Under the pieces are notes generated by a model, which made no database searches, was not told the DNA's origin, and saw only the letters and a list, made by a program, of their open reading frames with translations. A stretch of DNA of 64,000 bases from Eimeria praecox (lineage: Eukaryota): contig OY986949.1 in NCBI GenBank assembly GCA_963920595.1, forward strand, positions 310,001-374,000. The letters run 5' to 3'. Below are positions 5,388 to 64,000 of the stretch, piece by piece (the first letter of the stretch is position 1; each line of letters starts with the position of its first letter). Position numbers and translations under genes: made by a program.

Positions 5388-5473
<86 letters not shown>

Positions 5474-7904: not shown

Positions 7905-7967
<63 letters not shown>

Positions 7968-29539: not shown

Positions 29540-30097
29540 CTAAAGCAAGAAACAAGCAGAAACAATCACAGGGGCGTGGTGAAGTTGAGGTAGCACAAGA
29601 AGCATTACGCCAGTATTTGCTGGCGCGTCGCACACTCAAACGCTTATGTTGCCTGCTAGAGCTCTACGTCCCCATCTCCTGGGGGGCGACGGTGCAGCGT
29701 CAGCCCTGGAAATTTCTTTGCAGCATTATGCACTCCCCGCCTCTAAAAGGCTTCCATCATTCCTATATTCACTAGTCCAGGATTCAACCAAATGAAAAGC
29801 GCATACTAAAAAAAGCGCAGTGCATATCGGAAGTATCAGCTCTTACTGAAAGAGCGTCTGCTACGCTCGCTTCATACGCGAAGAGCAAGCCGCACAGTGC
29901 ACCAAGACGCACATGAAATTCGCACATGCCATTTTGCAGAGCTCCTTTTCACAAAGCCAGCACTCTCAGACACTCTCTCCAGCATCTATCAGCTTTGACG
30001 CTCATGCAAGGCGTTGCTAGCCGTGCGCCGACGAACAATCACTCAGCCTTTTTCAACTGGCCGTCTAGCTCATTTCATTCGAGTACATCAAGCTTAC

Positions 30098-33000
30098 TGC
30101 CTGACCAGCACGAAGTCCCGCTTCCAGGTTTGCAGTACAGGTATATGAAGTAGATCACTTCATATTCATATTCGACGGGGCATGCAGCCTATACTTTGCT
30201 CTTACGCCCTTGTTCTCGCCCTAGGCCTATTAAATAGAGCGTACTGCCTGTTGCATGGCATCCCGTGAATTACACAGAAATCTTGTCTCCATTTCTGAAA
30301 TGTCAGTAGGCTACCTGTACTCAATTCCGATGCAAACAACTGAAAGACCCTCCATACGGCTGGGTGCAACAGACGGAGTGGCGGGGGGCTGCCATCAGGA
30401 CTCCCCTTAGAGCACTGGCATTTGCATGCGCTCGAACTTGATACCGCCTAAAATTCCTGCATACCAAGTCGGAAGCTCGCCCTATTTCTCTACGCCCTGT
30501 GTGTTGGCCACACGTACTAACTGTTGCACAGAAAACGCAAAACTCTACGCTGCTCTGCAGTTTGTCGTGTCTCCGAACAGCCTGTTAGGTTCTCATTAAG
30601 CTTACGTCCCCCAAAGTAAAGAATCATCTCAGTCACTTTCCCCTGTCTATTGGCTACAACCATCCGCACTGGCTGACGGAGGCGTGGGGAAGACTTTCCA
30701 GCCTTCCCAGCCATCCTCCGAGCCAAAGCAGACGCTCATGTTTGGAGCATGCAGCGTACTAGCTTATGCAAGAGGGTCGATTGTTCTTATTTTACATGCA
30801 TTCTATCCATTTCTTGCCGCTGCCTTGCATCCAGAATATTAATAGGCTGTGCATCGGTGAGACTGCTCATGAAAAAGATGTGTCTGAGATATGTGAAAAC
30901 ATCTCTGTCTATTCGTGGCCACTAATCACAAGGCGCTACTGAGCCCTCAATCTCGCTAGCGCAAAATGAGGAGGGAATCAGCTTTTGCTCGCATTCAAGG
31001 CCTTGCACGGGGAGTCAATATATAGTTTAAACGTACTGCCTATTGTATGAAATTTCCGCCTCGCGAAACAGCACAGTCTCATGCCTCAACCACGCTTTCC
31101 CAAATCCGTAAGCAGCATGCAGGAAATACTAATGTGCAATCTAAATATTTCAATTCAACAAAAAATGCCCAGAACAAGCAACAGCACGTCCTTACAGGAT
31201 CATCTTAAATTGATGCAAACGACACAATTCCTGCTCGAGTATTGGTAAGAGTTCAAACCTCCCAAGTACATCTGGGCTGCAGCTTAGATGAACAGTGCAC
31301 ACAGCTATATAGCTGACTAACGGATGTGACATACTTGCTTCAGTATGACGCATTCTCGAGCTTAGACCATCAGTGACACCTACTACACTCACCGTGTTGC
31401 AAAACCAACGTCACTTCCTCAACGCATCGAAATCTCCCTCCTTCAACGCTAGGCCCTCTTTAAATTTTCCAAGCTTCTTCTAAAGAGCAGCAAATCTCCC
31501 CAGTTGGCGTACCATACTGATTCTCTGCGGGCTCCTGGCCTCAGCTGCACCCTTTAACGCATGAGGCATTCGCATTAAAGCCATGCAGCACTTAGCGCCG
31601 GCTAGCAAGACTGCTTTGTTACACACTTGCTGTAACGAAGGCAATGTATCATCCCCCTAAAACGAGAATAATCTAGGTACGCTATCTCTGGTGGACGCTG
31701 CAGGGCATATTCATGGCACATCCCGCAACCCAATCTCTTATACGAGGGAAAGCCACAATGTACAGCAGCGGGTTAGAACTTCAGCTATTATTTCCACAGT
31801 CTCAATGCTCCTCATCGTAGTGATTAGTCGCACCATCTAGTATGTACCGCTGCTGAACCGCCATTATAGATTTTGGCATCTTGGCTATCAGCCGAATCGA
31901 AGCCTTGGGCTATCGCCTTGTCTGGCAGAAAACACAAAGGTCACTGCAAGACAACATTTCAGGGGGATATGGCGTTATAAGAAGGTAACAAACCAAAATT
32001 TTTGGGTTCACACGGTGCCTCTGTTGTATGTGCAGCACACAGTAAAGCGTGCGCTAGACGGCTTCCAACATTCGAGCTGCTGCTATAGTCAACGGCAAAA
32101 TTCTGGGATGCATGCCTCATAGGTCCTTCTTACCGCCTGATGCGTGCAATATACCTGCTATAACAAAGAATGCCTGGTCGTCGCTCTCAAGCATGCTCGC
32201 CTAATGCTTGATGCTCATAAATTTATGGCCCGTTTGGTTATTACTCCCCCAATCATGCATCAATCATGCGCTAGAAGTACAACCAACTACAAGAAGAGCG
32301 CTTCCGGCTAAAGCAATGCTCTAGCAGTGTAACCTGCATGAGCCTAAGCGTGCGTGAACCTGAAAACAGCCGTACGTCCTTTTTACACCATCGAATGACG
32401 GTTTACCCACCGTGGCTTGCCGGCAACCCAGCCGCGCTTCCCTCATGGATTTGACTGAAAGAGGCAATGCCAAGTATGGAGAGCAACATCTAGGCAACTG
32501 CTTGTTCCTCGAATTTCCACGTGATCAAGGGATTCTGATGTTAGCGTGAGGCAACTGAAGGGCACCCAGTCGGCCAGCTGCCTCATGCGCACTCTCTAAG
32601 TACCTTGCCACTATATCAAGCCTATTCTATACTGCACGGCACTAGTCCAATCCATTCGGTGAACTTTAGAGCAATATTCGAAGGGGCATGATGCTAGCTT
32701 CAATCATGTGGGGGGCGCTACAGCACTTCTTCCATATTTTGAGTGCTTTTAATGCATTCAACGCCTCCCAATTGATCTTCTGTTCCACGAGATTCATATC
32801 TTCCTCCATGATTCCAGAGTCCCAAGGCGTATTTGGCGGCTTACTGCCTGATGCACACAACCTCGGTAGTGTCCCCCCCTGCTTCGTAACCGTGGCGCCT
32901 TTGGTCGAACAGTTCGAATAGAACGGAAATGGAACTGTGCGGCGGCAAGGAGAAAAATCCTCAGACCAGCAGGGTTCTTGTTAAGGAGCTGAGCCGGCAG

Positions 33001-36000
33001 CGAACCACGTCGCGTCCAATCACAGTAAGACAATCCAGTTCAAATATACGTCCACTGAACGGCTCGTGCTCCCGCTGCAAAGAGCATGCTTTCAGAAATA
33101 TATATCCACTGAAATGCTTGTGTACAAGACCGGGGTTGGAATCATACTTTCTGGTAGGTCGCACTCCCGTCCCCCCCATGGCACATGGGCACGCCGGTTT
33201 CTCACCTGTTAGCCATTCCGCGACTGCTGAGCGCGCGAACAGATAGCATCTTGTGGCACCATTGACCGCTGAAAGATGCATCAGATTGTTATGGTCAAAA
33301 ATGCGCCGCGTGTTTGGCCATAACAATCTGATGCATCTTTCATCCTATTCGCATGCCAGAAACATGACAGGTTCTGAATGCTGAAGGCAGCTCTGCCGCA
33401 AAGCAAATAAAATGCTGCATATTTAAAGCATGCACGCGTGAAATACAACTTCGTCTAGAATTTACGCGTACCTCCTGATGCATGCCATTGCTGCGTTGCA
33501 ACGATCTGCAGTCCCTCTCTCTCCCTTTCGGAGCCACACAATTATTGTACAAAACAGGAAATTTATCAAATAATAAACGCAAATGCTGCCAGTAGCCATG
33601 CCATCTATGAAACATTGAATATTGAATTGTTGAGATGCCATGCTCACCCGCTGATATACCATAGGATTTTAGTTCTCTCGCCGCGTGCTGCAGTTCCAGA
33701 ATCAGCCTAAATGTTTCGGCCTGCGCGGATCCCACGAACAACAGCGACGCACAAAACTGCTAAATTGCCCCTCCGCCAGACGTTATGCTCGCTAAAAGTT
33801 TTTCAGGCCCATTCCTTCTGATGGACCACTGAGAACATCTGTTTTCTCAGCCAATTCAGCCGTCCACGGGCTATGCGGTTCACACATACCTCCTAATGTG
33901 CAGCACTCCCCTTATGGTGCATGCCCCACTGTCTGAGCGAGCTTTTGAAGAAGCCCACCTTACTGGATAGCGAAGCCGGTTCTCGTAAGCAGGCTGCCAC
34001 AATTCTGCTGAAATGAAAGGTCGCCTTGCGTTTCAGAAATGCTTCGGGATCTCTGTATATGCCCATTTAACAAACAAAAGGGTGTGGGCAAGCACCATGG
34101 AGATCGTCGCACCCTCTGATGCATTGCAAGCCTACTGAACCTCGATGTGCGCTCATCAATTCACATCAGCAACAGGATCATAGACCAGCGTACGTGTAAA
34201 CAAGAACCTTCAGTCGCACAACAGCGCTTTTGGAACAAGGGTACTGGCGTTACCTCTGCCAGCCGCATGCCAGTGTCCCTTTACTGACGTGGTGCGCCTC
34301 TGCAAACACATTTGGTGGTTGGATGCCTCGAATGCATTGCTGGAGAGCTTACCAGCTTATGCACACCGCTTTGCCTACTCCACAACGCACATTGTCTACG
34401 CACATTTCAGAGGCACATCCATGATGGATGCCCAGTTCACGCCCCCGGAACCTGAATTCGGTCCAAAACGACGTCACTCAGCCTATGCATTAAACAACAT
34501 GTTCGTCGCGATCGAGGACGGTACGCCCGCCTCCTGTGCGTGGTAGGATGCGTTGAGCTATGCAGCAGTAGCACCGATGGAATTCTTGTTCACGCCGTAC
34601 TGCCTGGTGCAAGAAGCGCTTGTACACTCATTGCACTCTTGTACCACAAGTCTTTCGAAGCACATCCCTAGTCAAAATTTACAAAACGCAGGAGAATAAT
34701 CCCGCAGGGGCAAACGGTGCGCTTGAGAAGGTCCGCCAAAGACGCTGCAAGCTGCAGCAATCATGCGCTTCATCTGAAAGGCCATAGGATCTTGACTGCT
34801 TGGAACATTCTCGCTTCGCAGGTCTTAAAGTCAGTCGTACTGCCTAATGCATGGCACTATTACTCGCACCTATTGAACTTCCCCCAGCATCATCTTCGCC
34901 TGCCACAGCAAGAAGGCAGTTTCTCACCGGCAGAGCCCAAGAATACTCAAAAGAAAAGTTGTGACTTAATTTACCACACGCTGTGTCACTCTCGCTTTGG
35001 CAGTATATACACTTACACAGTCCTATAGGGATAAGGGAGAGCACGACGTATTTTAAGCGGCATCACAGCATGTCGTGTGCGCCTTACCAACAGCCTGCGC
35101 TCACCTCCTGAGTCATCACAGTCCAGCTGTACCGCCGTGCGCGGTGACGTCTAGCCTTGAATTGCCTCGCAAGATGCCAACGCGGTTGCTACCGGTCAAT
35201 CACCACGAGCGAACCTGCACGCAAGGTTCGGCAACTCCTGGAAAACTAACAGCTTGCCTCTCAAGCATGCAGGAGGTCCGCTGACACTGAATGCCTGCGG
35301 GAAGCTTTATTAACTACCAACAAGGCGCGGCATGCAAGACGCCCGGCTGTGGCCTACTAGCTGATGTAAACCACCTTCTTGCTGTAGAGCCTTACATCAA
35401 CTCGCGATTTATTAGCCGTTGGCAACCCATATTATAAATGCGCCAGCGGCTACGTATCGCAGTCCAACCAGATTGGTGCTCGCCTGGAACATGCAGCATT
35501 ACCATTTTGGCATATGATGCCCTACCACTTTCCCTCTTGCACCCAGGGCACTCATTTGGGATGCTATCTGCCTACCGAAGCCTGTTTTAACACTAAGCGT
35601 CCTTGAAAATCAGTTCAGTTAGCAGCATACTGTCTGGTAAGCCACACCCCCTGCACCGGCACAGCACATCCACAGCTCATCCCCTTTGGCCACGCCAACC
35701 TTCCCCTCCAGCATCTGCTGGCAAGGTGTACCGAGAAACCATATGTGATAAAGAAGTGGCACAAGTGTCCTAAACGCAGTACCGCTCTGTGTGGCAAGCG
35801 CCTCACATTCAGACCCCAAAACAGTTAGGGAAAACGCACTACCTTGCTCATGCACGTGGTTGAGAGTCCGAGCGTACGCCCTGTGAACGATCACGAAGCA
35901 GCGCTCAAATGTAGCGCTTTAATCAAGCACGCCGGAAACTCACCCCATTGCCCGTTTCCATGCAACTACGAAACAGCGTACTGCCTAATGCATACAAAAC

Positions 36001-39000
36001 GCAGGGCATTCATTTGGACCTCTGCTATCCACCAACAACCTGCACCTTGGTAGTCAAACTACTATTAGGGAAGGCGAATTGTGTTGCCATCATAATGCTT
36101 GAGAAGTGAGGTGCTTGGAGTGCGGAACAGTACTTTCGCAATTAGCATCCCCTCCCTAAACGAAGTGCTGCAGCATTAGTACTTGGGCGTCTCAGCATTT
36201 ACAGTAAATTTAACAGCAACACCAGTGCAAGTGTTCTATATATCACGCGCACATCCTGGCCCACGAGGATACTGCACCACCATAAGTCAAGCCAGATCCT
36301 AGCATTCCACGCGCAGCTGCACAGAATACACTTGCTTTGAATACAAAAGGCGCGGTACTGCTTTTCATTAAGAGCTAGAATGCACGGAACATCTAGTTGA
36401 TGCAGCAATATTTCTTTCCAGAGCAACTACTCCACCTGTAGGCTAATAATGCCACTAGTCAACTGTGTCATATGTGCCATTTGAAGTTCCCCAAGACCAA
36501 CCTTCGCAGGCGCGGTCTAATGGCAACGCGCACTGCCTAATGCATTATAATGCGTTGGTGTCATTTCTATGCTACAGAATCAGCATAGCGGCCTGAAAGT
36601 AACGCACGCCCATTGCCGACACTACTCCTAAGCACTGCTGGGAAAAATTCGTTTACGCACTTCCAGTCTCTTCTGCCAGTCCTCTGAAACCTTTAGCTAT
36701 TCAGCGCACCAACTGCACCCAATTTTTATTTGCTTACTATGCTACTCACGTAAACATACTCTACATATTGAGCGTACTGCCTGGAGCACCGAGCCCATCA
36801 GCCGTATGCCCGTCGTGTGCGACGAATGTAGCTACTAGAAAAGGTGCAAGTGGCATGTTTGGACAAACTGAATGAAATGCTAGCATCCAATCGGCAGATA
36901 GCCAAACATCTGCCTGTGCTCGCTATACCCCGGCAATATCACGAGCCCATCAAGAACCTCATCCTGCTGAGTGCTTCACGGAAAACTGCTTATGCAAGGG
37001 GCTGACTAACGAGCGTACCGCCTACCACATGATTTCTCGATGCATGCAGGCTCTCTACATGCGTTTTTTAGACCATGGTCCCTGCAATCTCGTTAAGCGA
37101 GCACACTAGAGGTCAACCGTACTTGCTGGTGAATGCGATTCCCCTGGATGGTGCGTGCAAGGTGCTCAGAAGCCAGCCACGAAATGACACACTTCCAGCT
37201 AAGCCTCCACGGACCAAGCGTTTGAGAAACTAAGCAGCAACAGTACCTGGAGGGCTCGCGAGGTGTAAAATCGTTTTCCCCATGGAGGCATCCAGATGCT
37301 GGTTTACCGATGCAAGTACCTCTTACAGCACTCAATTATTAAACAGTCGTCGCGCCGGCATGTATCTAGTGTCCAAACGCACTGCCTGGTGCATAGCAGC
37401 ACAATGACACTAAATGCTCCGGTATCGAACACGCTTCCCCACGCATGCATGTGCGCTTGTAGAAGCGAAGGCTCATCTACTACTAAATGCAGGCGTATTT
37501 AAGCATTCCGATATGCTAGATAGCAATGATCAACACCTCAAACTACTGCAGTGCTTGAAGTGTTACGAAGCACAAATCATGGGCGTGACACGCGCACGCC
37601 AACGAAGTTCATGCGTGTTTCCCCAGTATGGGACGTATAGCAACCACTAAATTCGACAGTGAAATCAACCCTTATCAGCCATCGTCCGCAAATTGGCATA
37701 CACCTGCAGCACTTGTGATAACCAGATGCTGCACACATGACGGCTCACTCGACTACTGCCATGAGGCATTATAACAGAAGCTCCCCCCAGAAATCCCGGC
37801 GCCGCGTCGCGCTTTTAAATTTCTTCAATCACTTGAGTTTGCAACTCTCAGCGGCCCTTGCACTTAGCCTTACATCACCTCTTCAAAGCAATGATGTCCC
37901 TAAAACGTGCACCAGCTTCTTCAGCTCACAGCCACACAGAAGCATGTTCCGGGAACTGTCCAACGCACCCGCAAGATAACACAATAGCACGTAGTTGGCC
38001 ACTTACCCCTTACAAAATGCTCACGCAGATAGACTACGCTTCAAACGCACTGCCTGGTGATGCACGCCATTCCAGGGAAGGCGGCCACAGCTGGCCGCAC
38101 AAGGCATGCCATGGGCATGCAGAACCCCGCCTGCTTACCCACGCTTGCTTATACCACATGGCCCTGCTTCAGGAGGAGCAAAGTCTACCAGGCCACCTAC
38201 GTAGTGCGCTAATGGCGATTGTGCTTACTTCCTAGTTCAGATTGATATCCCAGAGGAAGTGGCTGCCTTGTGCTTTAACCGTACCCCTCAACCCACATCC
38301 CAGGTTCCCAATGGGCATGCTTCCGGTGCAACCGCGTACGGCCAAACAAAACAGTGCCACAAATGTGTAACTGCACCTTTCCTTGAACGGCACAGAGGCC
38401 GCGAGCCACAACCTCCTGGCCAGATCAAAGGCATTCTAGTACCCAGGAGCCTGTACAGCAGGCTTCGTCCATTTCGACGCGCAGCATAGGCGTACTCGCT
38501 GAGGCATGGCAATAGAGGTCCTGCAATCTATGCACAAGGCTTGTCTTTTCACAAACACATGTTTTGCCCTATGCATTAAAAGTGTGTGCAGTTTGAGCTG
38601 GATAATGTTCGATGATATACGACCACAAAATAACCCCAAATCCCTATAGACTTTATACACAGATAACCCTTCTATTTGGCATTCCGTCGAAGCGCCTGGC
38701 CAGAATTTGTTCCACCTTCAGCGATCCCCTAGTCGGCCATTTCATCTGTACCGTACATTCGGAACTTACCGCCTAGTCCATGCACTCCCGTAGTTTGAAT
38801 GAGCCTTCAACCTCGCATGCGATCCGCACTTCAGAAACAAACGAAATCAAGAATCGAAGCGTACCCTCTGAAGAATGCCTTTTATTTAGTTGCATGAGAC
38901 CATACGGCCCTTTTACTGACTGTGGCATGTCGCTCACACACATGTCGCTTACACAAGATGGACAAGATAACGCACATTCGTGAAATGTGAATCTCTTGTG

Positions 39001-42000
39001 ACGGTGTGCTTGGCCCCTACGTTTCCTGGCAGTGTCAAACATGCTGCGATCTTTGCACTTCAACTGCATGCGCCGTCGGTTTTGTCAACACAGTTTAGGG
39101 ACCGAACACCAAACATACTTTCTAATGGGTGGCACTAGCCAATATCGATGCTTGCAGATAGCGTCCCACATCCGCTCCTCCCACGGTTGACTGCCCAACA
39201 CAGCATGTCTAGTGTGAAACAAGGCACTCAAGACTCGACTGGTCGGAAGATGCTGGGGAGCACCCATAGCGGGCTCCAACTCGCACTTGCATGCGTGCAA
39301 CACTGCAGAAGATCACCGATACCAGGCCACTATCGCAAGTTTGGAGCAATGGAGATTCTGCGGTAATGAATAGGAAGACGTGGGGATCGTAGCCAAGCAT
39401 TCGGTGTGAGCCTGTGGGGAACGGTCTCGAGTGCAGGTTTTGGTGACAGTAGCAAATATTTAAGTGAGAACATTGAGGACTGAAGTAGAGAAGGGTCCCA
39501 TGTGGACAGCAATTGGGCATCGGCTAGCGGGCCCTAAGCGAAAGCATAGCTGCGGGAATTTCGGGGCTTTGCTGCCCTCGTAGTTCGCGAAAGGGAGCCG
39601 GGATAATATTCCTGAGCCAAAACGCTGATACGTTACGGTGGCGTGAATGAAATCGTCGACGCAGGCGGGTGCAACGGGAAGCGTTGTCTTTGCTTGTTAA
39701 CAACCTCTTCACATATATATCCTGCAATCAGACTGTATGGGGACAGGTTTGAGAGGTTGGTAGAGTTTCCTGGCTTTCTGGGAGTCCGGTTAGATTTCCC
39801 TAGCATCCTCTCTGATACATCCTTGCTTGAGCATAGTGAAGAAAACAAACCTACCGCCTTTTTGTGCAGTGCATACGCCTATCAATTTAGTCGGCTGACA
39901 TTTGCACGCGGCCACCCATTCGAGTCGCCGAATCACCGGTGTTGCAATCACTATCCTGCCGGCATAGCCTCCACCATACACAATTTTTGGAGGGCACGCC
40001 TACTGCCTGATACGTGACGCGCAAATACCGCAAGAGCGTGCTCATTAATAATACACACAATGCCGCCAGTGCATTCAGCAGGCCAGCACTGCACTCACCA
40101 GAGCCTCACAAATTGCAGCCCCAAGCATACAGCGCCACACAACCGGCGGGGAGAGGGCTTTGCAGATGTGTAGTGCCCTGTCCCGGCGTCTGCAGCACTG
40201 GAGCCACAATTTAACACAGCAAAGCACTCTTCAGTAATTCCGTAGACTCCTGGAAGCCCTTTGAGCTACGGAGTTTTGCATCGTGCATTTTGCGCATGCT
40301 CACGTCCTGAATCCTCAGTGCCAGCTCCCGCCTCACGGCGGTCTTGCTCGTGTTTGCCACTAAGCCCCTCTTAAAAACACTCAGTGGCCTGCACTAGCCA
40401 TTATGCACCGGCAATTTAGAGGATGCGGGTGCAAATCGCTAACAACCAGCAGCTCCCCCTTGCACTCGCGCAACACTGTCGATTTTGCCTTGGGATTTCC
40501 CTAGCATCCTTATACTCTAGGATAAATACGTGCTTGGGCGTAATGAAGCGAAGAAACCTACCGCCTTTTTGTGTAGCTCATGCGCCTATCACTTTAGTCG
40601 CCTGAAGTTTGCAGGCGGCCACATATTCGAGGCGCCAAATTCCCGGTCTTGCAAACATGATGATTTTGAGTACTAACGATAACTGTAATAGGGAATAACT
40701 TGCATGAGCGGCTCAGCCGCGCGATGCCCATCAGCTGGCTGTAGACCGTTGAGAACACCAAACTACAGCCTTCCCGAGCATCCACTGTTAGGGTGCAATC
40801 TCTATGCTGCCGACATAGCCCGCACCATATACGATTTTTGGAGGCCAAGCCTACTGCCTGATACGTGACGCGCAAATACAGCAAGAGCGTGCTCATTAAT
40901 AATACACACAATGCCGCCAGTGCATTCAGCAGGCCAGCACTGCACTCACCAGAGCCTCACAAATTGCAGCCCCAAGCATACAGCGCCAAACAACCGGCGG
41001 GGAGAGGGCTTTGCAGATGTGTAGTGCCCTGTCCCGGCGTCTGCAGCACTGGAGCCACAATTTAACACAGCAAAACACTCTTCAGTAATTCCGTAGACTC
41101 CTGGAAGCCCTTTGAGCTACGGAGTTTTGCATCGTGCATTTTGCGCATGCTCACGTCCTGAATCCTCAGTGCCAGCTCCCGCCTCACGGCGGTCTTGCTC
41201 GTGTTTGCCACTAAGCCCCTCTTAAAAACACTCAGTGGCCTGCACTGGCCATTATGCACGGGCAATTTAGAGGATGCGGGTGCAAATCGCTAACAACCAG
41301 CAGCTCCCCCTTGCACTCGCGTAACACTGTCGATTTTGCCTTGGGATTTCCCTAGCATCCTTATACTCTAGGATAAATACGTGCTTGGGCGTAATGAAGC
41401 GAAGAAACCTACCGCCTTTTTGTGTAGCTCATGCGCCTATCACTTTAGTCGCCTGAAGTTTGCAGGCGGCCACATATTCGAGGCGCCAAATTCCCGGTCT
41501 TGCAAACATGATGATTTTGAGTACTAACGATAACTGTAATAGGGAATAACTTGCATGAGCGGCTCAGCCGCGCGATGCCCATCAGCTGGCTGTAGACCGT
41601 TGAGAACACCAAACTACAGCCTTCCCGAGCATCCACTGTTAGGGTGCAATCTCTATGCTGCCGACATAGCCCGCACCATATACGATTTTTGGAGGCCAAG
41701 CCTACTGCCTGATACGTGACGCGCAAATACAGCAAGAGCGTGCTCATTAATAATACACACAATGCCGCCAGTGCATTCAGCAGGCCAGCACTGCACTCAC
41801 CAGAGCCTCACAAATTGCAGCCCCAAGCATACAGCGCCAAACAACCGGCGGGGAGAGGGCTTTGCAGATGTGTAGTGCCCTGTCCCGGCGTCTGCAGCAC
41901 TGGAGCCACAATTTAACACAGCAAAACACTCTTCAGTAATTCCGTAGACTCCTGGAAGCCCTTTGAGCTACGGAGTTTTGCATCGTACATTCTGCGCATG

Positions 42001-45000
42001 CTCACGTCCTGAATCCTCAGTGCCAGATTCCGCCTCATGGCGCTCGTGCGCGTATTTGTGAGTCAGCCCCTACCAAAACCATCTAGTGGCTTGTATTAGC
42101 CGCTGTGAGTCAGAGACGAAGGGACGGAAGGAGGAACCGGCACGGTTAGGACGTGCGGCATTTAACGTCTCAATCTCGCTGATCGGTTTTGCACCTGAAA
42201 TCTTCGCATATCAGCTATGAAGTTTCAGACTGATCGTTTATACCAGCTTGTGCATGGAGGATATTCCCGAACTGTGAATTCGCATTCAAGCGCCTTCTGC
42301 GACAGCTGCTTCTTCGTGGCCTACAATAGATCCACAACACGTACAGGTGACAACTGCAGAGATGCTGAGTTAGCAAACCACATACCTGTGAAGCATGTGT
42401 AAGGCGCCACAGCAGATGGTTAATATGATCCAAAGCTCTCTACGCTAGCAAGGCTGCATGCTACCTGGAAAGCCGTCACTGCTTCCTGTGCAAAAGGCAC
42501 ACACTCACACATCATCAGGACCTAAACTCAATCATTCGTCCCAACTCGCTATATTCTGTCGGGAAGACAATGCCCTTCTTGCGGAATGACCAACGTAATC
42601 AAAGGATTCCCCAGGATGGCTTGGTATCAATCTTTTATCAATCTTTACACGCGTTCGCGGGGAATTGTGCTTCCATGCGAAGCAGCGATTTACCGTGCTG
42701 CGCGCTGCACTGAAACCCTAATTGCATGCAATAAGGGTAACATATGGTTGCTGAAGCTTGAATGGCTCCTCAATTACAGCCTGCTGCTCAACCACCCCCT
42801 TGAACACACAAAGACACGGGCGTGAAGCAGAGGCCGCGAGCAGCTCTCTACTGTCAGCTGCTAGAGACAGAAACGTTCAAGATAGCAGCTACAGATTTGT
42901 GACGGACATCTTGTGTTGCCAAATGCCATTCAACACGTTTCTCACTTTTGTAATTAAAAAAGCATGCTTCCTAAATCACCGCTTAGAGAGACACCACATC
43001 AATGCCAGTCTCACCGGCTAGCGATTTGGATCATCAAAAGTGCACGCCCGTGTCTGGGAGGAAGCCAGCCTTCACTGGATACGCTTCCATCATTCGCTTC
43101 CGTTATGAAATGGCCTCTATTAAAGGAGCCCTAAATTGCGCAGGTATTCAAGCTGTTCCCGAAATACAGGCGAATGATAAAGCTAGGAATCAAACCTAAT
43201 CGCCAGCTAAAAGTCTGACAAAGCTGCATCCGAGCACAGAAAAATTCATAAATAAACGAGACACAGGAGTAATTCCTCTGCGCACTGCCATTAGTTCTCC
43301 TGAGTGAGCCACACAGCCCTACGGCATGGTGCTTCAAGTGAACAAACATTCATTTGAAGCGCACGACTGTAGGGAGGCGCTTGCCCATGATTGGTCCCAT
43401 TACAGGGATTAAGCGTACTGCCTGCTATGCGGTACACCCGTGATGCCACAAATGCAGCACCCTTCTGCATTTGTTCACAGTTCCTTAATGAAGTACCAAC
43501 CTCTCTGCAAGCTTGAGTGCCAGCATCCTTACTGGAAAAGGGTAATACCCAATAAAACCCCTGTGAGGCTTGGGGACCGTTGTCCTGCAGGCAAACGTTG
43601 TGCCTCTCATGTTTTACACCCCTCAACGTCAACGTCACTTTGCCCTCTTTTTAAAAGAATCTGGCATTTAAATTGCTTTCATGCAAAACCCTGTATAGGA
43701 AGCGAAAGAAAATGCTGGATCTTTAACATCAAGCTTCCATACATGCCTGAATGTGAACGGCGACCCGATGAATGCTGCAAAACCCACGGCAGCCCAATGC
43801 ACCAAACGACGCCCCTCAGACCAGTAAGGAAGGCGTACATCTCAACACGCATTGCATTAAGCTTCTGGTCTGGCACAATGTGCTAGAGGTTCTTGTTCGG
43901 TCGCTTCATCTTCGGGCCAAGACCCGCCCTGGCAAGTAAGCCAGGAACTGGAGAAGATCAGCTGCATGGTCAGTAGGTCGGTGCTGCTTTTTTTCCTATT
44001 TCTCTGGCATACTTCACCCTCTACCGATTTTAGGCGTAGGAAGAGACTCGCTGCTCAGCCAAACCACTGCTCGCAGCTCTATATTTGAAGAAATGAGCAG
44101 TCGTCAAGTGCTGCTGTGCCTTGTCGGGAATAACGTGACAGTCATTCAGACCAAGCGCAATACGCGTCTAACGACAAAGGAGCTTGGGAGCACCCATGCA
44201 GCCAAAGTAAAGGCCCTTGAAGCCGTTTTCTGCAATCGCTAACTACCCTTTCACGTTCATCATATGCGCTGCGCATGACGTAATATTCAGTCACGCCCCT
44301 GCAGAATGAGCGCATGCTTCGGCCTCCTTATTTGCGCTCAAGCATGCCCTGTGAATAATAGCCAGGGCGAATATTCCCTGACATCCCTTCTTTCTATGGA
44401 AATGTGCTCCTTATAAAGCAAACGCAATCGGCTGCTTCGATTTTGCCGCCAGAAGACAAAAGCATTCGAAAGGATGAACGTGCTAAAAACCTCCTAGTGT
44501 GTAGCGTTTGCGCATTATCATTCGCTTGCTCGTAGGCGCGGCGGGCGCACACGCCGCCGCGCCTACGCACGCCGCAAATTTGCCACTGTTCAAGTGTGAT
44601 ATTTGCACTCACTCTCTGTTGCTTGCATGATACTCATAGAGCGGCGAACCATGCCAAAGTAAATATCTTACTGAGCCTGTCGGAAAGCCCATGATTCCTA
44701 TTATGTGTCTCAGACACTACTTAAAAAGGCAATATATGTATTGAAATCATCTATTCTTCCATTCAATTAGCCGGTTGAAACCATGCAGCCGCTTATCTTT
44801 ATGCCTCACGTTTGCAGCCCTGCGCAGCCTGTACTCTCATCACTGCTCAAGCACTGAGTGCTGCTGCACGCAAGGAGTATCAGCAAATAAAGACGTGGAG
44901 GCTCTCCGAAAGCGTCAACGCGGACATATTTCCACCAATGACCTTGTCAATCGAACGTTTCAGATTGGCTAGTTGAAGGCTGCTCTACAGAACACAAACC

Positions 45001-48000
45001 GGAAAATTCAAAGTGACGGCAACTTAGCCACGTTCTGCAATATCCGCATACAGGACGTGCTGGAGCAAGCAAGTCGTTCCAACAAACAACTCCCTATAGG
45101 CTCATCATATGTGAAGGGTGAATCTGCAGGCTTGGATCTGGAGCAGTTCGCGGGACAACTTCCTGTCCTATATCGTTCACAGTGCGTACCTTACGCATTG
45201 GATTATACGAATCATTAGCTGGCTGGCGAGGCGGATTGCTTGCCGTTGCAACTCACGTCCTGGAAAATGGTACACGTAATACAGTTGAAGCTGCTATCTA
45301 ATGAACAAACAGTTCAGAGAAATGGTACACTACAGTTCTCTCCAACTGTTGTAGCTTCTCCCGTAGCAAAGCCTCAGTTTTCATGCCGCTTTTTCGCCGC
45401 CCTGCAAGGTCTCCTCGCACGGTCAGCCTGCAATTCCATTATCATCTAGTATCCGCTGAAGCACTATTTGTGAGCATCGTGCAGGGAGGAAGCCTACTTC
45501 CTGTTGAATGGGTTAAACCATCACTTTTATTTGCCAGGCATACCACCCAAGGAAGCAGAGAGCTTCACTCACAATGTGTTAGCATGAATTCACGCATGCG
45601 ACGTCTGCATTCAATTAAACTGTGGTCATCGTCTGCATTCGTAGGCGCATTCCTCTTTCCCCATAGCCCAAGTGACATTGTCGATTCATGCATGCCCACA
45701 GGCTAGGCATTAAGCTTGGAGAAGCCGCCTATGTAAAAAGCCTGAATATCACGCCTACGTCCTGCTTGTCAGTGCGCCTGTCGAGCACTGTTCCTCTTTC
45801 GTTCTGCCCTACGCAAGCTGAAACCCAAGCGTAGCCTCACGAAATCGGTGCGGACAGACGAACATTCCTGCTCGCTTCTACACACACAGAGTTCCACCGC
45901 TTCGCCTCGCACCCTGGAGTGTATCAAATGCCGCTGGCATCTTGTGTCGTAGGGGGTGTGCATGTCTAGTAATTAGTATACGTACTGCCTAATCAATCAG
46001 CTTCCCCTAGCGCTGGAGACGTCCGCGCTCAAATTACTCTCAAAAACGCCGTGCCAAATGGCAGTGCTTCAGGAACATGTTAGAGCAGGCGTTGCATATG
46101 TTATCAATTATTAAATGATCGTGAGCACGAAAGCAGCAGCAGCAAGGTGTCCCAGGTACGCAGCACAAGATATTTCTAGTTGAGGTCTCACAGTGTTAGT
46201 TGCGTTATCAACACTATCCCGGCCCTTGCAAACTAGGAGGTCAGTTAGCAAGCCTTCAGGCGCCCCTGGAGCACTCAAAAGTGGTTTGGAGCCAGTGCAT
46301 ACTCTCTGAAGCACGAGCATTCCGAGTGCCCTCAGTGCAAACCGCTTCTCACCAGGCATTCATTATCGTCATGCGCATCGTTGTCTGTCCGCGTCTTGAA
46401 CCCAGGTGAGGGGGCAGATATTAACAGGCGGCGTTGGTAAGGGTTGGTCCCAACCCTCAGCTAATACACAACCAATCGCCCCATGAATGCATGACACGCT
46501 TACACAGTGTCAAAGATCTTCTGAATACATGTATATACATGCCTAGCTCCCAAATGCTTTGAAAGCATCCCAAGAACGACCAGCACATAATGCAGGCTTA
46601 CTGCCTGATGCATGACACCCCCACACTAGACGTGTGCCCGCGTGGCGGCCGCATGCCCTAGCATCACGCCACGCCTACTCTAGAAGAAGTGCGGATATTC
46701 GTGTGCAAACAATTCTAACTCGACGTTCCTCGAGCATACGGCTTCAGTACCATTCTCCTGCGCTGCCACCCACCGAAAATGCTCTCCCCTTCGTCCCGAA
46801 TTCCACGCATTTTAAAGCTTGACTCACCAGTGTGGTGGCACGTATCTTGACACTCACAGCCTAAGGCACGATGCTTCCACACTACAAGTGTATATGCCTG
46901 GTCTGTCTATCTGCTCGCTGCGGTTCCGCAATTCCACAGTGTGACTTATCAGGGAGCAACACACGCATACACTGAAGAAGTAAAGGTAAACTTGCGTTGG
47001 CAAGCGGTATAATTGAAGCTTGGGAGTTAGTTTCCAGGTAAGGTGTCAAACATACTTCCTGACGCACGAAATCCCGAAGCCTGCACGATTCATTCCATCA
47101 CTCACCCCTGCTTCACAGTTCCCAACGCAGGCCACTTGTTGAAGGTGGCCACACACGCATGAATCGAGCTCAGCAGGTGAGGCGGCATCTGCTCAGCTTT
47201 GTGCCGCTTTCAGTTCACGAATCACATTATGGACGATTCCGCACACCTGCACTGACGCCCCAAAGCTCTCCGTTACCTCCGAACAAGTGCTCGTCCATTC
47301 ATTCAAGAGCTCAAGCCTACTGCCTGGTTCAGTGCAGTTTTCCTTTGTTGGCATGCACGCACGCGTGCCACTCGTCCAAATAAATTGGTTACCATACAGA
47401 GCTTCCCAGGCAAACAGTATAGCGTGGGGAAACACCTATCAGGACAGCAGACGCTTCCGGTACGTGCTCTTGCAGGCTTTCGAATACATTGCAGCTAAAC
47501 CAGCCAGCACTGGATAATTTCAGAAGCCTATTCGAGCTTTCACATGTTACGAAACACCTCGTGAAAATTGTCAGATATGTGACGGACTGTCTGATAAGCA
47601 AGTATCATGTAGGGATAGCGTGCGTACTTGCCTTCTACCTCTTCAGCCTATCGCTGGCCGTGCACGCTAATGCTCCAGGCAAACGCCAGAGGCCTTACTT
47701 AATCTGTGGCCTTGAGTACAGATGTGCCTAGGATCCGCATCAGTGACATCCTGCAGGCACTGTGGCACAACGTCTGGCACCATCAGAACACAGAGAGCGA
47801 GCATCATTTCAGGGGCCTGGCGCAATCGTCAGTTTAATTTCAGAAAGCAGGCTAAACTCACTGCCTGGAGAATAACACTTTGAGATACTCCCGTACAGCC
47901 TTGAAGCTGGCGAGTTTCTCGTCCGTCGGCCGCACCGCCCAGGCACACGCTCAACCTATCCTTTGCCGATAGGCAAAAGTGGTTAGAGCGCAGTGATCAT

Positions 48001-51000
48001 GAAATACCTGCCTGAGAAATTAAACTAATTGCTTGTCTACACTGCTCCGACTCCACCGAACAAGTTTTCTGTTTAAATACGAAACACGCGCACCATCTGA
48101 TTAACGATAATCAATATAAAAGGCTGCCTCACCGTGGTCTCGGCAGAGAATGCGCTTGGAAAATGTAGAAGCACCCTCGTCAACGCACCACTGCTGACCC
48201 ATCTGTCAGCTCAAACACTTAACCATCCACGGCAGGCCACTAAAGACCCTGAAGTATCTAATTGGATCCACAGAGCGAAGCATCAGCGTTTGCCGCTTGC
48301 TGAAACGTACCGCCTGATGCGCAGCACCCGCCTACTGCCACAAAACACGCTGGCATCTTCTTTATCCTCCATACCATCAGGTTTAATCTGCTTGACCAAA
48401 TGCAGGCTCGTTTCAAACCAATAAACCGTCTGCATGTAGGATGAAACACGCTGGCATTTGATACTTTTCGCCTTCCCATTGGCACGCGCCTCAGTGCTGA
48501 ACTGTGGCACACTTGTTGAAGAGCCTCATCACGTTTTACTTCGTCCCCAGAACTAATCGCGGAAATCGGAATAAGCGCAACTATAGTACATAATTCATAG
48601 ATCTTATTCACAGTCGTAGCGTATGGGCAAAAACCTGCATGATAGCAAGCATACTGCCTGATGCATGGGACTAATCCGATGCCACATTTTATGCTGGTTT
48701 TCTATATGTGAGGCGTCCGACAGTGGGGAGAATTCAGTCCATCAGTCGCAAATGCCTCTAATAATATCCATTTCTTGCCCTCTATGTGAGAAGGTAGGCC
48801 TGGTCAATCCCCCATGCGTTCAAAACACCAAGGATTGAAAAAGCATCGCGGTGAAGCCGCAGTATGGCATCCAAGACAGTAGTTATATGCAGCATGCGGG
48901 GGTCGAACATACATCCTAGTGCATGGCACGAACTTGCTGCATAGGCATGCAGCACTAGTCGATGGTTCTGCCTATTTCCCGCACGTCACACATAAACGTC
49001 CTAACCGGCCTTAAGCACTGACAAAGCTAAGCGGGGCCAACGAACATTGTGCCTACAAGTGATGCGCCATCTTCTGCAGCCAGCTAGGGCCGCTTTTCTC
49101 TGTGCTCCATTCGCGGCAACACTCCCACAGAATAGTATGCGAGGCCTGGCCATTTCAACTTGTTTTCTGGGCAATCGTTTTGGTCTTACACCAGCATGCA
49201 CGCCTACCGCCTGATGCGTAACCCTCGCGCATTGCCACAGCGCAGGGCGTCTGCCATAGAGTAAGCCGGGCCTTCTTATAAAAAAGCTTTCACTGTAAAG
49301 TGGTAAACCCATTAATCAAAAGGGCGAACGAGCAAGAGAGGCCATTCTCAAATCAAGTAATCAAGATAATCAAAAGCATTCAAGCACCGGCGGGAAATCC
49401 CCAACGCTATTGTCGGTCAACGTAGGACTCTTCAAGGTGCGCAAACTGCGGCGCAAGCGTACTGCCTGACATAGAGCAGTCTACTACTACCGCAGTGCTT
49501 GCTGCGTGCTACGCATCAGCCACAGCTTCGCAAAGCGCACCCAAGGTGCCTGCCTTTATTCCATTGTGTCTCTTCCCACCCATCGTGAACAAACAAACAA
49601 TGGACTGCATAATTGCAGCGTCGTGTCCTCATTTTAACAGACTCCTCAAATCTGCGTACAAACATGGTCAAGCACTCTTGCTGCAGTTTTCCGATGTGCT
49701 CAGCCTAGACGTGAAGCGTACAGCCTGATGCATCACGAAGCATAAAGGGTGTGTGCCACCACGCTTGATGCCCGTGTAGTCTAATACAAACGTGCAGACA
49801 ACATTTTATAGGGGGAATAAAACTAAAATTCAGTAGAACAGGAAGACTCTCTTTGCGTGCAGAGTACTCCAACATTACAGTCCCGGTGCTGTTAAGTTGC
49901 CACACGTAACCGACAACACCCATAACCGATAACGCCCAAAACAGATGTACTGTTATTGGTGGTAAACCTTACCGCCTAATGCAAAAGCCTTTCACATAGC
50001 TGTAGTGTATATTTGATCCTTTCAGTTAGCCACACCTCTGGTGTCCGCACTCGATTCTGATGAGGAAGCTCAGGCGCAGTGGTGAATAACCACCCTAAGC
50101 ATGTGGTATGTGGGGAGAGGCCTAGCACCACCGCTATATTCCCATACTGCTTTTTGCAAATGGATTTAAAGGAATCCCACATTGCAGGGCCCCCAAACAC
50201 GGCCCCTGCTTTCCCAATTACCCTCCAGCCGCTGCCTGCGCTCAGGGTTTAAAGGTCAAGCGTACTTGCTGTTGTATAGCATTCCAGACTACCACGCTGC
50301 ACGTCGACACTTGAAGCATACGCACCGCTCTCATTGCTGATGGGCACGTTTTGTTACCAAGGATCAGTTTCAGCTGGTGCCTTGCATCCTGATTGGCTCT
50401 AGTATTCAATGAGGCGCATTTAGCAGTCTTTTGTCTCCTACAAATTTTAAAGTACAGTATGCCTTCGCATTTAGACGTCACTCCTACCACCTGAAGTATC
50501 ACATCCCCCTTCGGCTCGGTGAACACATGCACTTCATTCGTCAGTGAAGAGTCAGTAGCCATTCGAGGTGCACACACATTCATAATCGTCCCAGTTAGCA
50601 AAGGCTGCACTGCCAAATGCTTAGGAGTCCACGGCACCCCCACACTTTAGTTGGGTGGCAACGAAGATGTCCCCCAGCAGCTGCTTCTACCTCACCCGCC
50701 TGTAGGGTAACCGTACTACCTAGTTGATAAATACCTCTACTTTCCACTGTACGGCAATGCATTCCATCATTCAACCATTCCTTTGGGTAACAAAGTGCTC
50801 GTTCGGGAGCATCCATCCCCAATCATCTAATCCCGTGTGTCACGTGCAAGCACTGAATCTCAGGATAGTGCATTATTGTGAAAATGCCAATAACGTAATC
50901 ATAACAACGTCGCACGCTCCATCTATCTTCTAATTAAACTTCCAGGAATCCCGCATTTACGCGTACTGTCTGCATGACGCTTGCATCTTGACAAGATTTC

Positions 51001-54000
51001 CCCCTGTTCATTACTTTGTAGTCAGCCTCACATAATCAGCAAAATGAAGTACTCCTGCAAGGCTAAAACCTACGTGAATTCGACTTCCAACAAACGATAT
51101 GTCCACTCCCTGCCGGTGCAGATTAATAAGCATTGATACTATCTCTGGAAAATACAGTAGGCACTGCAAGGCTTTACACTTTCGCTGGAAGCCTGCTAGG
51201 CTTGCGGCTCACTCCAACACGCCAGATTAATTAGGCTATTGCCTATATGTAACATGTGCTGACGGTGAGGCAAAACGAACCTCCTGTAAAACGAATATCT
51301 GCCATGTGGCTTGTTTCTTGTCAGCATGCATGGCAGTTCCAGACAAATGCAAGCATGATCTGGCACGTTATTGGCCTACCTACCACGCTGATGTACTTGA
51401 GCTCTGTCGCCACTATTCCAAATGATTCAACAGGGGTGTTGGTAGACAGTCCAGCGAACGTGCTGACCAAATAGCTCTCACACACGACACTCGAGCCTAA
51501 AAGGCAGCCACCTAGGTTTTTGAGAGGTAGGGGAAAGCACGGGAAGAAGGCTTTATTTGGGACAAATAAAATCCCCAGTGAAACAATATTTTCAAGATGC
51601 ATGATATAATCCTGCACGTTTTGGTAAGCAGATGTTAAAATGCAGTGAACAGAGTGCGCGTCCCCCTGCTGCCTACAGGGCATTGTCATCAGCAGGCATC
51701 CGCGTCTCCATCATACTACATTGTTAGTCGCACTTTGTGGTCCATATAATACGCAAATGAAACCCTCAAGGTTTTATTGCCTGCTAGACAGTGCCAACGT
51801 GCTGACAATGAAAATGCCGCGTTCGCGTATGCAGGCTCCCGCGAACGCGGCAGAATCACGCAAGGATGCCACAACCCAGATTTGGGAATGCGACTATCGT
51901 CTTTACCTCGTTTCACCTGCCATCCGCCTCGAATGCCTTTAGCCATCATCTGCCTATGCTGCAGCATCGCGCCGCACGCTCCTCCTCACACTTTCCCGTA
52001 AGCGCATTATCTCCCTGTGCTTAGCATAGACAATTTCATCCCACAAACCCTGACGCCTACTATCTACGTATAAACACATTCCAGTCCGGCACTACTCCTC
52101 TTGCGGCTTTCTGTCAGTTTTTGGTGAATGCAGGACCGGGCTGCTATGGAGGGACTTCACAGCTAACGCATCGCAGGAACATAATCTGCCGTCCGACAAC
52201 TTCACTAGAATATGGATAGGAGGCTTTTTGCGGAAAGCGCACTTTCTGTAGAGCATTGATTTACCAAGTATTGGGCTCTACTGGATCAGATGCTTCAATG
52301 AACCACATCCTGATTCCGACGGAGTTGCCACCACTAAGGATATTTCTCCTTTTAATTTATCTTCAAACAGTGAAGTTCCTTTTACCTGGTTGGAGGCGCC
52401 ATTGCCAGCACATACATTCACTGATCTCTATATAAAAGGCAACACAAGCCCCACGAAGCGCCGGGCTAGACGGAAGGCTCATGATAACCTACTACATTAC
52501 TGTCTGCTGCATCACTGTCCACAGTCCTTGTAAGTGAATCCCTCGCCGCCACCTAGGACGTTAAACCTGCCTGATCCAACTTGGAAACAGCGTCGCAGAA
52601 GCTTGGGGTTTCAATTCGGTTACGCAAAACCTTGGACACCCTCGCAATCTTGCTGGTACAGTGTAAGCGAAAATATTCATTCCGGAGCACTCTACCCATA
52701 CGTCTCCCCTCGCAAGCTACCAAGGCGCCACCAACTGTGTTTATTGTTTTGGTCCGGCAGAAAACCCCATAGCGCAGCGTGGCGTGCCTGTGAAACTTAC
52801 AGCCTGTGCAAGTGGCAAGATTTGACGCGCTCTTGCATGCATGCATGCTCTATCTGAAAGGTATAAATGCATGCGACTGTGTCCACCCGCTTGCTTCAAC
52901 ATTGGCGCTCAGTCTCTAAAGTGTACTAGAAATCTGTTCCTTTTTACGCAGCTACGCACTGCCTGCAGCTCCGAAATCCCCTTTCGGTTCGCACCGCAAG
53001 CAGTGTAAACAAGCAGTGTGGCAATGACTGTTGCTGCAACGAGTCATTTATTTCCACCGCTGTCTGTGTAGCCGTAACCTGGCTCAAGGGCAACGGTCCG
53101 CCGGAAGTATCGAAACGCAGCAGCATGCGGAAGTCTCGAGCGGAACATTCTACAGGACGCCCACACTTTGTGTAGGTAACCCCGCATATGCTCACCATCT
53201 AGAGGCATGAGGAATTGTGCTACACATCTAAATGGGCTCATGCAGGCGGTACTGCACCACGGCTTCTAACGCATTCGCAACAAAGATCGTTCAACGCATT
53301 GCTACATACCAAGGACAGACTCTTCAGGGCTGGCCCCAACTGCCAAAGAGTGGTATTTAATATGCCTAAACTGCTCCAGTTCCCCAAAATGTTTCTGCAC
53401 CGCTGTAGCCTCGCCAGACCACTATGCGGATAGAAGCGCCAGCACGCCGATTTAACCAAGAATGGGTTGATGCGACTCACTACCCTATAATCTATGGCAG
53501 CTGCAGCATACTTCCTGCACAAACGTTATGCCGCGCAGTTGTGTTCCGAATAGGTGAGGCCAATACCCAATCCTTCACAATAAATATGCCAACCATTCAT
53601 CAACGCGTAGGCTGACGGACTCGTTGTATAGCAGCCACGCAGCTTGTCATCATAGCAGTGCTGATCCTTGCTTGATCATACTGCCTGCATCACGATATCT
53701 GTGAACTACATGCTGCAGAATTCAGCCAAACTATACGACAATGATACGGCGGGAAACGGCGTTACAGAGCTTTCGTCACGCTGCTTCCGCTTGGCCTCAC
53801 TGGTTGTACCATACTTTTAACCTTGCCAATGAAGACGTGTTTATCATGTCCTTGCCTGGCTTCTACACGTAAAGGCCCGTCTATCTCAACCAAGAAGCAA
53901 CCGGCATGCATTGCTAGACGCCCTAGCCTGCGAACCGTGGGAACTCCCGTATGTACTGGCGCATCGTTTCATGCAGACGCCCTCGCTAGAGCCACAAGCC

Positions 54001-63249: not shown

Positions 63250-64000
63250 CTGAAACACAAAGCCTATATTTCAAATGCGGCATAAGCTGTCCTGACCACG
63301 TCACTATTCGCGCAAAACGCAGAGCACGTATGCTAGTGCAGGGCAATACTGTGTGCCATCTCTCCAACAAAAGGATGTTAACAACTTCCGCAGCGAGCGA
63401 ACGAAAAGGGAAAACACAAGACACTACAGGAACCCCTGCCAGCATCATCCCAGCAACAGCAGCACACCAGCCATACGACGCGAAGGCGATGCCAGACATT
63501 CAGCAAGCCGCATTAACTCTGCAATCCCAGAAGCAAGGAACCAAGCGCAACTAACCCTTCTGCTCTGCAGCTGATATATCATATCGCCTCTCATATTCAC
63601 CTTTTCACGACGCTGAGCAGACTAAGAGCTCGAGGCGTCGGCTTTAGGCCGTTACACAGCAATGCAAACACTTGCAACGACACACTGCAAAACCAGCAGG
63701 TCCACTCTCCTGACTCCAGCATCCTGCCGACGTGAACTGCTCGATAGCTACCTTATTAGAACGTCTGCCGTAAACGCCACAGCCCCATATCAACCGCTAA
63801 CTCCAGAGAAGTTCGTATCTTTATAACGCAGGTTCATACGTGCCCAAGGAGGAAGGGAACTTCTAAAGCTGCATTTCCGTGCCGCGAGCCACGCTCTAAT
63901 CGCGGGCCCATATTAAGTGTCATGAGGCTTCAAGTCTTCGCACATCCTGCATTGCGCCAAATCATGATCTGCCACTTCCCCTGCAGTAAGCATGCGCATT

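What the first reader, a model, noticed from the sequence alone, without database searches (positions are those of the whole stretch)
39790..42100. An 851-bp tandem repeat that adds just three amino acids (D-A-A) per copy
Seen: each unit carries three 3-nt exons, GAC (42006/41155/40304), GCA (41706/40855/40004) and GCG (41413/40562/39855), giving DAADAADAA. The diverged last unit has a much shorter intron (spacing 149 versus 293) yet keeps both flanking sites. Inference: a recent snapshot of how the array grows, by unequal crossover of exon-intron cassettes, which always stays in frame.
Basis: partly seen in the sequence, partly recalled or inferred. Interest (0 to 1): 0.76.

Follow-up and report, generated by a model that had tools for sequence, protein, structure and literature searches.

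The report
Gene spelled one codon per exon
A real three-copy 851-base repeat lies inside a regular chain of about 60 three-base islands flanked by splice signals, which likely are one-codon exons of a helical protein that likely lengthened by copying exon-intron cassettes; no RNA was available to confirm the splicing.

Summary
The repeat is real: 2.7 units of 851 bp. Its head-to-tail junction stands in all 3 runs laid (2 studies) at about twice single-copy depth. All nine triplets lie where reported. The GAC and GCA sites are good; the GCG site has a weak AAG acceptor and a rival 24-nt form, so "D-A-A" is unproven. The middle copy is a hybrid of two older units about 80% alike, the expected product of unequal crossover. 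The larger result: the repeat sits within a minus-strand chain of acceptor-triplet-donor sites (94 versus 4 on the other strand, null 13-17). About 60 are spaced about 255 bp apart between 30 and 51 kb, have no stop codon and are 90% helix-forming codons. Best reading: a gene, probably coccidian, written largely one codon per exon. No RNA could be obtained, so splicing, phase and gene ends are inferred. Closest in print: truffle nank codon-sized exons and schistosome micro-exon genes. The scan's notes report similar unconfirmed chains in other genomes.

The parts
39793..42101 (-). Tandem array of 2.7 units of 851 bp, each with three candidate 3-nt exons and three introns
   Evidence: junction and depth in DNA runs
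41250..42100 (-). Copy 1 (its first 114 bp are of the older type, 79% like copies 2 and 3)
40399..41249 (-). Copy 2, hybrid: start like copy 3 (113/114), tail like copy 1 (448/450); likely crossover product
39793..40398 (-). Copy 3, tail about 80% like copies 1-2, with a 144-bp gap in the intron between the GCA and GCG sites
42006..42008 (-). Candidate 3-nt exon GAC (CAG acceptor, GTGAGC donor); copies at 41155-41157 and 40304-40306
   Evidence: score 4.0
41706..41708 (-). Candidate 3-nt exon GCA (CAG acceptor, GTAGGC donor); copies at 40855-40857 and 40004-40006
   Evidence: score 9.8-11.3
41413..41415 (-). Candidate 3-nt exon GCG (weak AAG acceptor, GTAGGT donor); copies at 40562-40564 and 39855-39857. 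Rival form: 24-nt in-frame exon from a TAG acceptor (41413-41436, 40562-40585, 39855-39878)
   Evidence: (score 1.0; the copy-3 site was left out of the computed chain)
45257..50969 (-). Upstream block of the chain: 23 candidate 3-nt exons; 19 of 20 gaps between high-scoring sites are 190-350 bp
30098..39121 (-). Downstream block of the chain: 35 candidate 3-nt exons in the computed chain, a few of them weak
29843..29845 (-). Possible terminal exon start: CAG acceptor followed directly by TAA, 255 bp after the last triplet (1 of 9 possible acceptors in that range)
42102..45256 (-). Unresolved gap in the chain: only 3 strict triplet sites; longer exons, long introns or a boundary between two genes
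39300..39770 (+). Fragment of eukaryotic large-subunit rRNA, antisense to the chain, inside the intron after copy 3 (explains its 733-bp length)
50970..63946 (-). Further 3-nt sites upstream: 13 in 51-57 kb and 12 in 57-64 kb (about 2.5 expected each); from 56.1 to 63.9 kb evenly spaced about 650 bp; same or another gene

Best explanation
The 851-bp repeat is a real three-copy duplication inside a regular chain of about 60 acceptor-triplet-donor sites that likely form a spliced protein-coding gene with one codon per exon, and the middle copy likely arose by unequal crossover between two older copies. Shown: the repeat, its junction in DNA runs, its mosaic of old and new segments, and the strand-, length- and spacing-specific chain. 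Inferred steps: (1) each intron of about 250 nt is recognised across the intron, since a 3-nt exon is too short to be recognised across the exon, and removal from the 5' end would leave a long spliced stretch upstream at every step; (2) the triplets are read as whole codons and give an Ala-rich, Asp/Glu/Arg/Lys-studded alpha-helix of at least 60 residues; (3) because every exon is 3 nt, gain, loss or skipping of any cassette keeps the frame, so unequal crossover changes helix length by a few residues at no cost; here a two-unit allele became a three-unit allele, likely adding Asp-Ala-Ala; (4) the organism is likely a coccidian apicomplexan.
For: (26.1-64 kb, copies 2-3 masked): 94 YAG-NNN-GTRNG on minus, 4 on plus, 5-25 for each of the 60 other lengths 0-60; Markov nulls mean 12.7-17.0, maximum 25 in 180 simulations; of 76 minus-strand AG-(Ala/Glu/Asp codon)-GT sites, 52 also have -3 Y, +3 R and +5 G, against 1 of 12 on plus; 19 of 20 and 20 of 29 gaps are 190-350 bp (null means 4.6 and 6.5; P 5e-5 each); best chains of 23 and 43 triplets score 250 and 362, against at most 12.3 for six other lengths and the plus strand under the same model; 55 of 61 triplets code helix formers (39.0 after shuffling the three positions; none of 20000 shuffles reached 55), 0 breakers or stops (9.8 expected); on the uncurated pattern list 51 of 61 (37.5). 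The last base is A in 38 of 61, not the G expected of a bare donor signal (splice consensus recalled). Leu and Arg each use codons of both boxes; 0 of 88 listed differences of a roughly 10%-diverged minority sequence type fall in the -3..+6 cores (null 3.9, P 0.04). for the repeat. TGCATGCA 12 times vs about 1 expected; PMC3505466 (passages) calls this octamer peculiar to a subset of apicomplexans.
Against: No transcript evidence at all. The splice model was trained on this chain's own sites, so absolute scores are circular; only the controls are fair. The conservation test is weak: 80 of 543 substitution rows were shown, P 0.04 for the core and 0.23 for the -14..+12 window, and the ends of the diverged contigs do not gather at exon sites (read by eye). 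One shifted reading of the downstream block is also free of stops, so phase 0 is not anchored. Absence of stops alone is not significant (P 0.06 for random triplets). No start exon or convincing signal peptide was found; the 42.1-45.2 kb gap and gaps of 445-670 bp are unresolved; one gap has only 4- and 5-nt candidates or a weak donor (47.3-47.9 kb). The GCG site of the repeat is among the weakest of the chain. One 3-nt site in the separate 550-bp array has lost its triplet form. Dominance of GCA could reflect descent from one repeated unit, not protein-level selection.
Confidence: 0.7

Rival explanations
1. The triplets are real exons but are alternatively spliced, as in truffle nank and schistosome micro-exon genes: the gene makes a pool of helices differing by single residues, and weak sites such as the repeat's GCG (AAG acceptor, or its 24-nt form) are often skipped, so a unit does not simply add Asp-Ala-Ala. 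This overlaps with the best explanation and differs in purpose.
For: Site scores range from -1.7 to 15.7; two acceptors of equal strength for the third exon; any skip keeps the frame; both published precedents are alternatively spliced (PMC4986451, PMC4350168, passages).
Against: The listed differences of the diverged sequence type avoid the triplets (0 of 88), with no sign of fast change in them; all nine triplets of the repeat are unchanged across segments only about 80% alike; AAG acceptors recur at 5 of 59 regularly spaced sites.
Confidence: 0.35
2. The sites are functional or recently functional splice signals but make no protein as predicted: stepwise (recursive-like) splicing points of a long intron or non-coding RNA, a shifted reading phase, or a decaying pseudogene.
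For: No start exon found; one shifted frame is open; unresolved gaps; an rRNA fragment inserted in an intron; no Pfam match in 97 of 97 genomic ORFs tested.
Against: The triplets vary like codons (synonymous families, 55 of 61 helix formers, 0 stops), which bare splice points would not need; a recursive site has no bases between AG and GT (recalled), and length 0 is not enriched (7 vs 10).
Confidence: 0.2
3. The sites are a dispersed motif or the remnants of an ancient repeat of about 255 bp with no role in splicing.
For: The acceptor side is enriched for TGCA(T) (22 of 59), the core of an abundant apicomplexan motif; even spacing is what an old tandem repeat would leave.
Against: Introns outside the 851-bp array show no pairwise similarity while AG, GT, -3 Y, +3 R and +5 G persist around a variable core of exactly 3 nt; one strand only.
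Confidence: 0.07

Closest known systems
[quoted passage not shown] 2012; not held; seen only as cited in passages of PMC4986451 and PMC13449251)
   Same: Tens of codon-sized exons in one gene; frame kept on any gain, loss or skip.
   Different: Fungal NLR genes with NACHT and ankyrin domains and shown alternative splicing. Here no such domain was found, the triplets seem to make up all of the coding region that can be traced, introns are about 250 nt and mostly unrelated, and the host is likely a coccidian.
Schistosome micro-exon genes, MEGs (10.1101/2023.06.21.545858 and PMC4350168, passages)
   Same: Most of the coding region in very small symmetric exons; parasite; missed by automatic annotation.
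   Different: MEGs have 10-20 exons, mostly 15 bp (3 or 6 to 81 bp), introns 0.1-5 kb, a signal peptide, and are specific to Schistosomatidae. Here about 60 or more exons of exactly 3 nt; no signal peptide found.
Isolated 3-nt microexons: Ncam, Drosophila troponin T (PMC8042270, passages); cytohesin-1 and RPS24 (search listing only)
   Same: Show that spliceosomes include 3-nt exons.
   Different: Single cassette exons among ordinary exons, not long consecutive chains.
Internal tandem duplication of symmetric exon-intron cassettes by unequal crossover (general mechanism, recalled)
   Same: Head-to-tail units that include introns, a hybrid middle copy, frame preserved.
   Different: The payoff here is predicted to be about 3 residues for 851 bp, about 1% coding.

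Membership tests
Tuber nank codon-sized exon genes | Tens of consecutive codon-sized exons | tested here: met
   At DNA level only: chains of 23 and 43 sites
Tuber nank codon-sized exon genes | NACHT and ankyrin domains | tested here: not met
   0 of 97 genomic ORFs of 100 aa or more gave a Pfam hit at E 0.01 (97 of the 113 listed); exons outside the window or shorter ORFs not excluded
Tuber nank codon-sized exon genes | Alternative splicing of the mini-exons | not testable with these tools
   No RNA holder listed
Schistosome MEGs | Most coding sequence in small symmetric exons | tested here: inconclusive
   True of the traceable part; gene ends and the 42-45 kb gap unresolved
Schistosome MEGs | Exons mostly 15 bp, 10-20 per gene | tested here: not met
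   Only length 3 is enriched among 0-60; about 60 sites
Schistosome MEGs | N-terminal signal peptide | tested here: inconclusive
   Three weak ATG candidates in 42-64 kb, none convincing; the start may lie outside the window
Schistosome MEGs | Host in Schistosomatidae | tested here: inconclusive
   Organism coded; GC about 51% and TGCATGCA excess point to a coccidian, by inference
Tandem exon-intron cassette duplication by unequal crossover | Head-to-tail copies including introns, present in genomic DNA | tested here: met
Tandem exon-intron cassette duplication by unequal crossover | Hybrid copy joining the start of one parent unit to the end of the other | tested here: met
Tandem exon-intron cassette duplication by unequal crossover | Duplicated exons are included in mRNA in frame; two-unit allele exists or existed | not testable with these tools
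   No RNA; only two samples laid

The most novel reading that the evidence does not exclude
A parasite gene whose coding region is written almost wholly one codon per exon: 60 to 90 consecutive 3-nt exons over 20-35 kb, about 99% intron, invisible to gene finders and read mappers, one of a hidden family, tuning the length of an Ala-rich helix residue by residue through cassette duplication caught here in the act.
Probability: 0.5. Interest if true: 0.85.

Novelty: new variant of a known kind. Interest (0 to 1): 0.7.

Why it matters
If confirmed, it is one of the most extreme gene layouts described: a protein assembled from dozens of single codons, in a lineage where my searches found no microexon gene in print. 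Such genes leave no ORF and no mappable read junction, so a class of parasite proteins could be missing from current annotations. It would test directly how a spliceosome handles long runs of 3-nt exons (order of intron removal, skipping rate), and the triplicated cassette gives a dated example of one-step, frame-safe growth. The repeat taken alone is an ordinary unequal-crossover product.

Tried and rejected
No whole genome is held. Run search: 3 runs, no RNA holder listed; all three behave as DNA with flat depth and no spliced joints; this says nothing on expression. Assembly artefact: rejected. Unexplained detail: the copy-3 letters at 40029 and 40138 were not seen in any of the 3 runs and that at 40224 only in X3; contigs drop variants, so this is undecided. 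Plain coding repeat: rejected. Pfam on 97 genomic ORFs: no hit. Homologue search with the ORF 17491-17802 among longer proteins: 0 of 152 candidates scored, so no protein anchor or organism name. Surface-antigen (SAG)-like motifs recalled from memory: nothing convincing. An older fourth unit upstream of copy 1: not above shuffles (164 matches vs mean 158, maximum 171). Branch-point motif: only a modest CTRA peak 50-60 nt upstream (13 of 59 vs 1-6 in other bins). A loose-end motif from an off-locus contig is not in the window. The predicted spliced protein was not searched or folded, so its family and structure stay open. For the conservation count I dropped 10 of the 40 substitution rows and 1 of the 7 indel rows shown (rRNA fragment and between-copy differences); all 40 and 12 rows shown were used. 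Literature: 9 searches; none gave a chain of 3-nt exons in an apicomplexan; Iotti 2012 itself is not held; no supplements were read, and subscription papers are not covered.
Full report
Observation. Self-comparison gives a period of 851 bp from 39943 to 42090 (97.4%), a third partial copy to 39793, and all nine AG-triplet-GT sites at the reported places on the minus strand. Spacing GCA to GCG is 293 in copies 1-2 and 149 in copy 3 because of a 144-bp gap. The unit cannot be coding as plain DNA (851 mod 3 = 2; 26-33 stops per frame).

The repeat is real. Three public runs hold the region (two studies, X1 and X3 one sample, X2 possibly the source). Laid on a stretch with one period, all three show a joint going back from 40790 to 39943 with the three missing letters. 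Junction contigs lie at 1.8-2.1 times and the shared core at 2.7-3.1 times single-copy depth in X1 and X2, as three copies predict; contig depth is a rough guide only. X1 holds both letters at 40471 in equal depth (459 of 911), so copies 1 and 2 are distinct. The copy-3 letters at 40029 and 40138 were not seen.

How it arose. Segment identities: start of copy 1 vs copy 2, 90/114; start of copy 2 vs copy 3, 113/114; middle 287/287 and 284/287; tail of copy 1 vs copy 2, 448/450; tail of copy 2 vs copy 3, 39/48 and 130/155 around the gap. So two old units about 80% alike existed, their middle is homogenised, and copy 2 joins the start of the second to the tail of the first. That is the expected product of one unequal crossover in the middle segment (inference); 3 differences in 564 bp make it recent.

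The larger object. In 26.1-64 kb with copies 2-3 masked, YAG-NNN-GTRNG occurs 94 times on the minus strand and 4 on the plus; every other core length from 0 to 60 gives 5-25; Markov nulls give 12.7-17.0. Signal positions not used to pick sites follow along: 52 of 76 vs 1 of 12. Sites are evenly spaced: 19 of 20 gaps in 45.2-50.7 kb and 20 of 29 in 30-39.2 kb are 190-350 bp (P 5e-5); median intron 253 nt. A chain model trained on this strand's own sites (hence circular in absolute score) finds 23 and 43 triplets scoring 250 and 362, against at most 12.3 for other lengths and the plus strand. Introns outside the repeat are unrelated to each other. The long intron after copy 3 holds about 470 bp of antisense large-subunit rRNA. 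An acceptor followed by TAA lies 255 bp after the last triplet, but it is 1 of 9 candidates. The 42.1-45.2 kb gap is unresolved. The excess goes on upstream (13 and 12 sites vs about 2.5), with a second even spacing of about 650 bp (CV 0.24, P 5e-5).

Are the triplets codons? Of 61 chain triplets, 55 code helix formers (Ala, Glu, Leu, Met, Gln, Lys, Arg, Asp) against 39.0 after shuffling positions, and none is a stop or helix breaker against 9.8; the uncurated list gives 51 of 61 against 37.5. In a 59-site list Ala is 25, and Leu and Arg use both codon boxes. Against this: no stops alone is P 0.06, one shifted frame is also open, no start exon was found, and GCA dominance might be inherited from a founding unit.

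Conservation. The runs hold a minority sequence type about 10% diverged at 0.2-0.3 of the main depth. Of 88 listed differences, 0 fall in -3..+6 of a site (null 3.9, P 0.039), 1 in -8..+8 (6.2, P 0.036), 6 in -14..+12 (9.4, P 0.23). Only 80 of 543 substitution rows were displayed and 11 rows were dropped (see Tried and rejected), so this is modest support. Four short matches from contigs of other loci (23-38 nt) each cover a whole site (chance 0.035-0.10 each), a hint that such sites exist elsewhere in this genome and in a low-depth organism, though shared splice consensus alone could give such matches.

The third exon. Its AAG acceptor scores -3.7 to -4.3, like the TAG acceptor 21 nt upstream that would give a 24-nt open exon. 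AAG acceptors occur at 5 of 59 evenly spaced sites, so the 3-nt form is plausible, but the residues added per unit (2, 3 or 10) need RNA.

Mechanism (inferred). Short uniform introns are recognised across the intron and removed in turn, so 3-nt exons need no recognition of their own; all-3-nt exons make every duplication, loss or skip frame-neutral; unequal crossover then tunes an Ala-rich helix by a few residues. The organism is likely a coccidian (GC about 51%; TGCATGCA 12 vs about 1; PMC3505466 passages); no call names it.

Comparison. Truffle nank genes have tens of alternatively spliced codon-sized exons (citing passages in PMC4986451 and PMC13449251; original not held). Schistosome MEGs have 10-20 symmetric exons, mostly 15 bp (passages). 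Isolated 3-nt exons are known (passages; listing). This gene works like them but fails their defining features (domains, exon size). Nine searches found no such chain in an apicomplexan. The scan's own notes list similar unconfirmed chains in other genomes and nothing on this DNA; they gave the truffle lead and are not evidence.

Verdict. Observation confirmed; interpretation partly supported; the repeat is an ordinary crossover product inside an extraordinary, still unconfirmed one-codon-per-exon gene. New variant of a known kind; interest 0.70.

Noticed in passing
window 39300-39770 (+): Degenerate large-subunit rRNA fragment inserted antisense in the intron right after copy 3.
   Followed up: partly
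window 18647-21381: Second tandem array, period about 550 bp, 5 units, each with one AG-GAG-GT site; in the unit at 20023 the site is changed at three of four bases and no longer a triplet site; related copies at 25722 (AGG) and 1208.
   Followed up: partly
window 1-26050: Nested segmental duplications (2.56 kb at 98% between 16605-19164 and 23404-25963; several 0.5-1.7 kb blocks at 75-96%), no Pfam hit; a few 3-nt sites recur in paralogous places.
   Followed up: partly
window 56125-63946 (-): Thirteen 3-nt sites evenly spaced about 650 bp, a second spacing regime.
   Followed up: partly
window 30000-50850, runs X1-X3: A minority sequence type about 10% diverged at 0.2-0.3 of main depth, with the same letters in both studies: a second haplotype or related species in the samples.
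   Followed up: partly
window 48644-48675, 49705-49742, 31614-31639, 37372-37394: Contigs from other loci match only short islands centred on triplet sites; possible paralogous or orthologous chains.
   Followed up: partly
window 33270-33342: A 73-bp inverted repeat (90%) within an intron; weak Rfam miRNA-precursor match far below threshold.
   Followed up: no
window 1-64000: GC skew has the same sign in all 32 bins, as one-directional transcription of the minus strand would give.
   Followed up: no
window 5389-5496 and 7906-7965: Two CA microsatellites at paralogous positions of the duplicated blocks.
   Followed up: no
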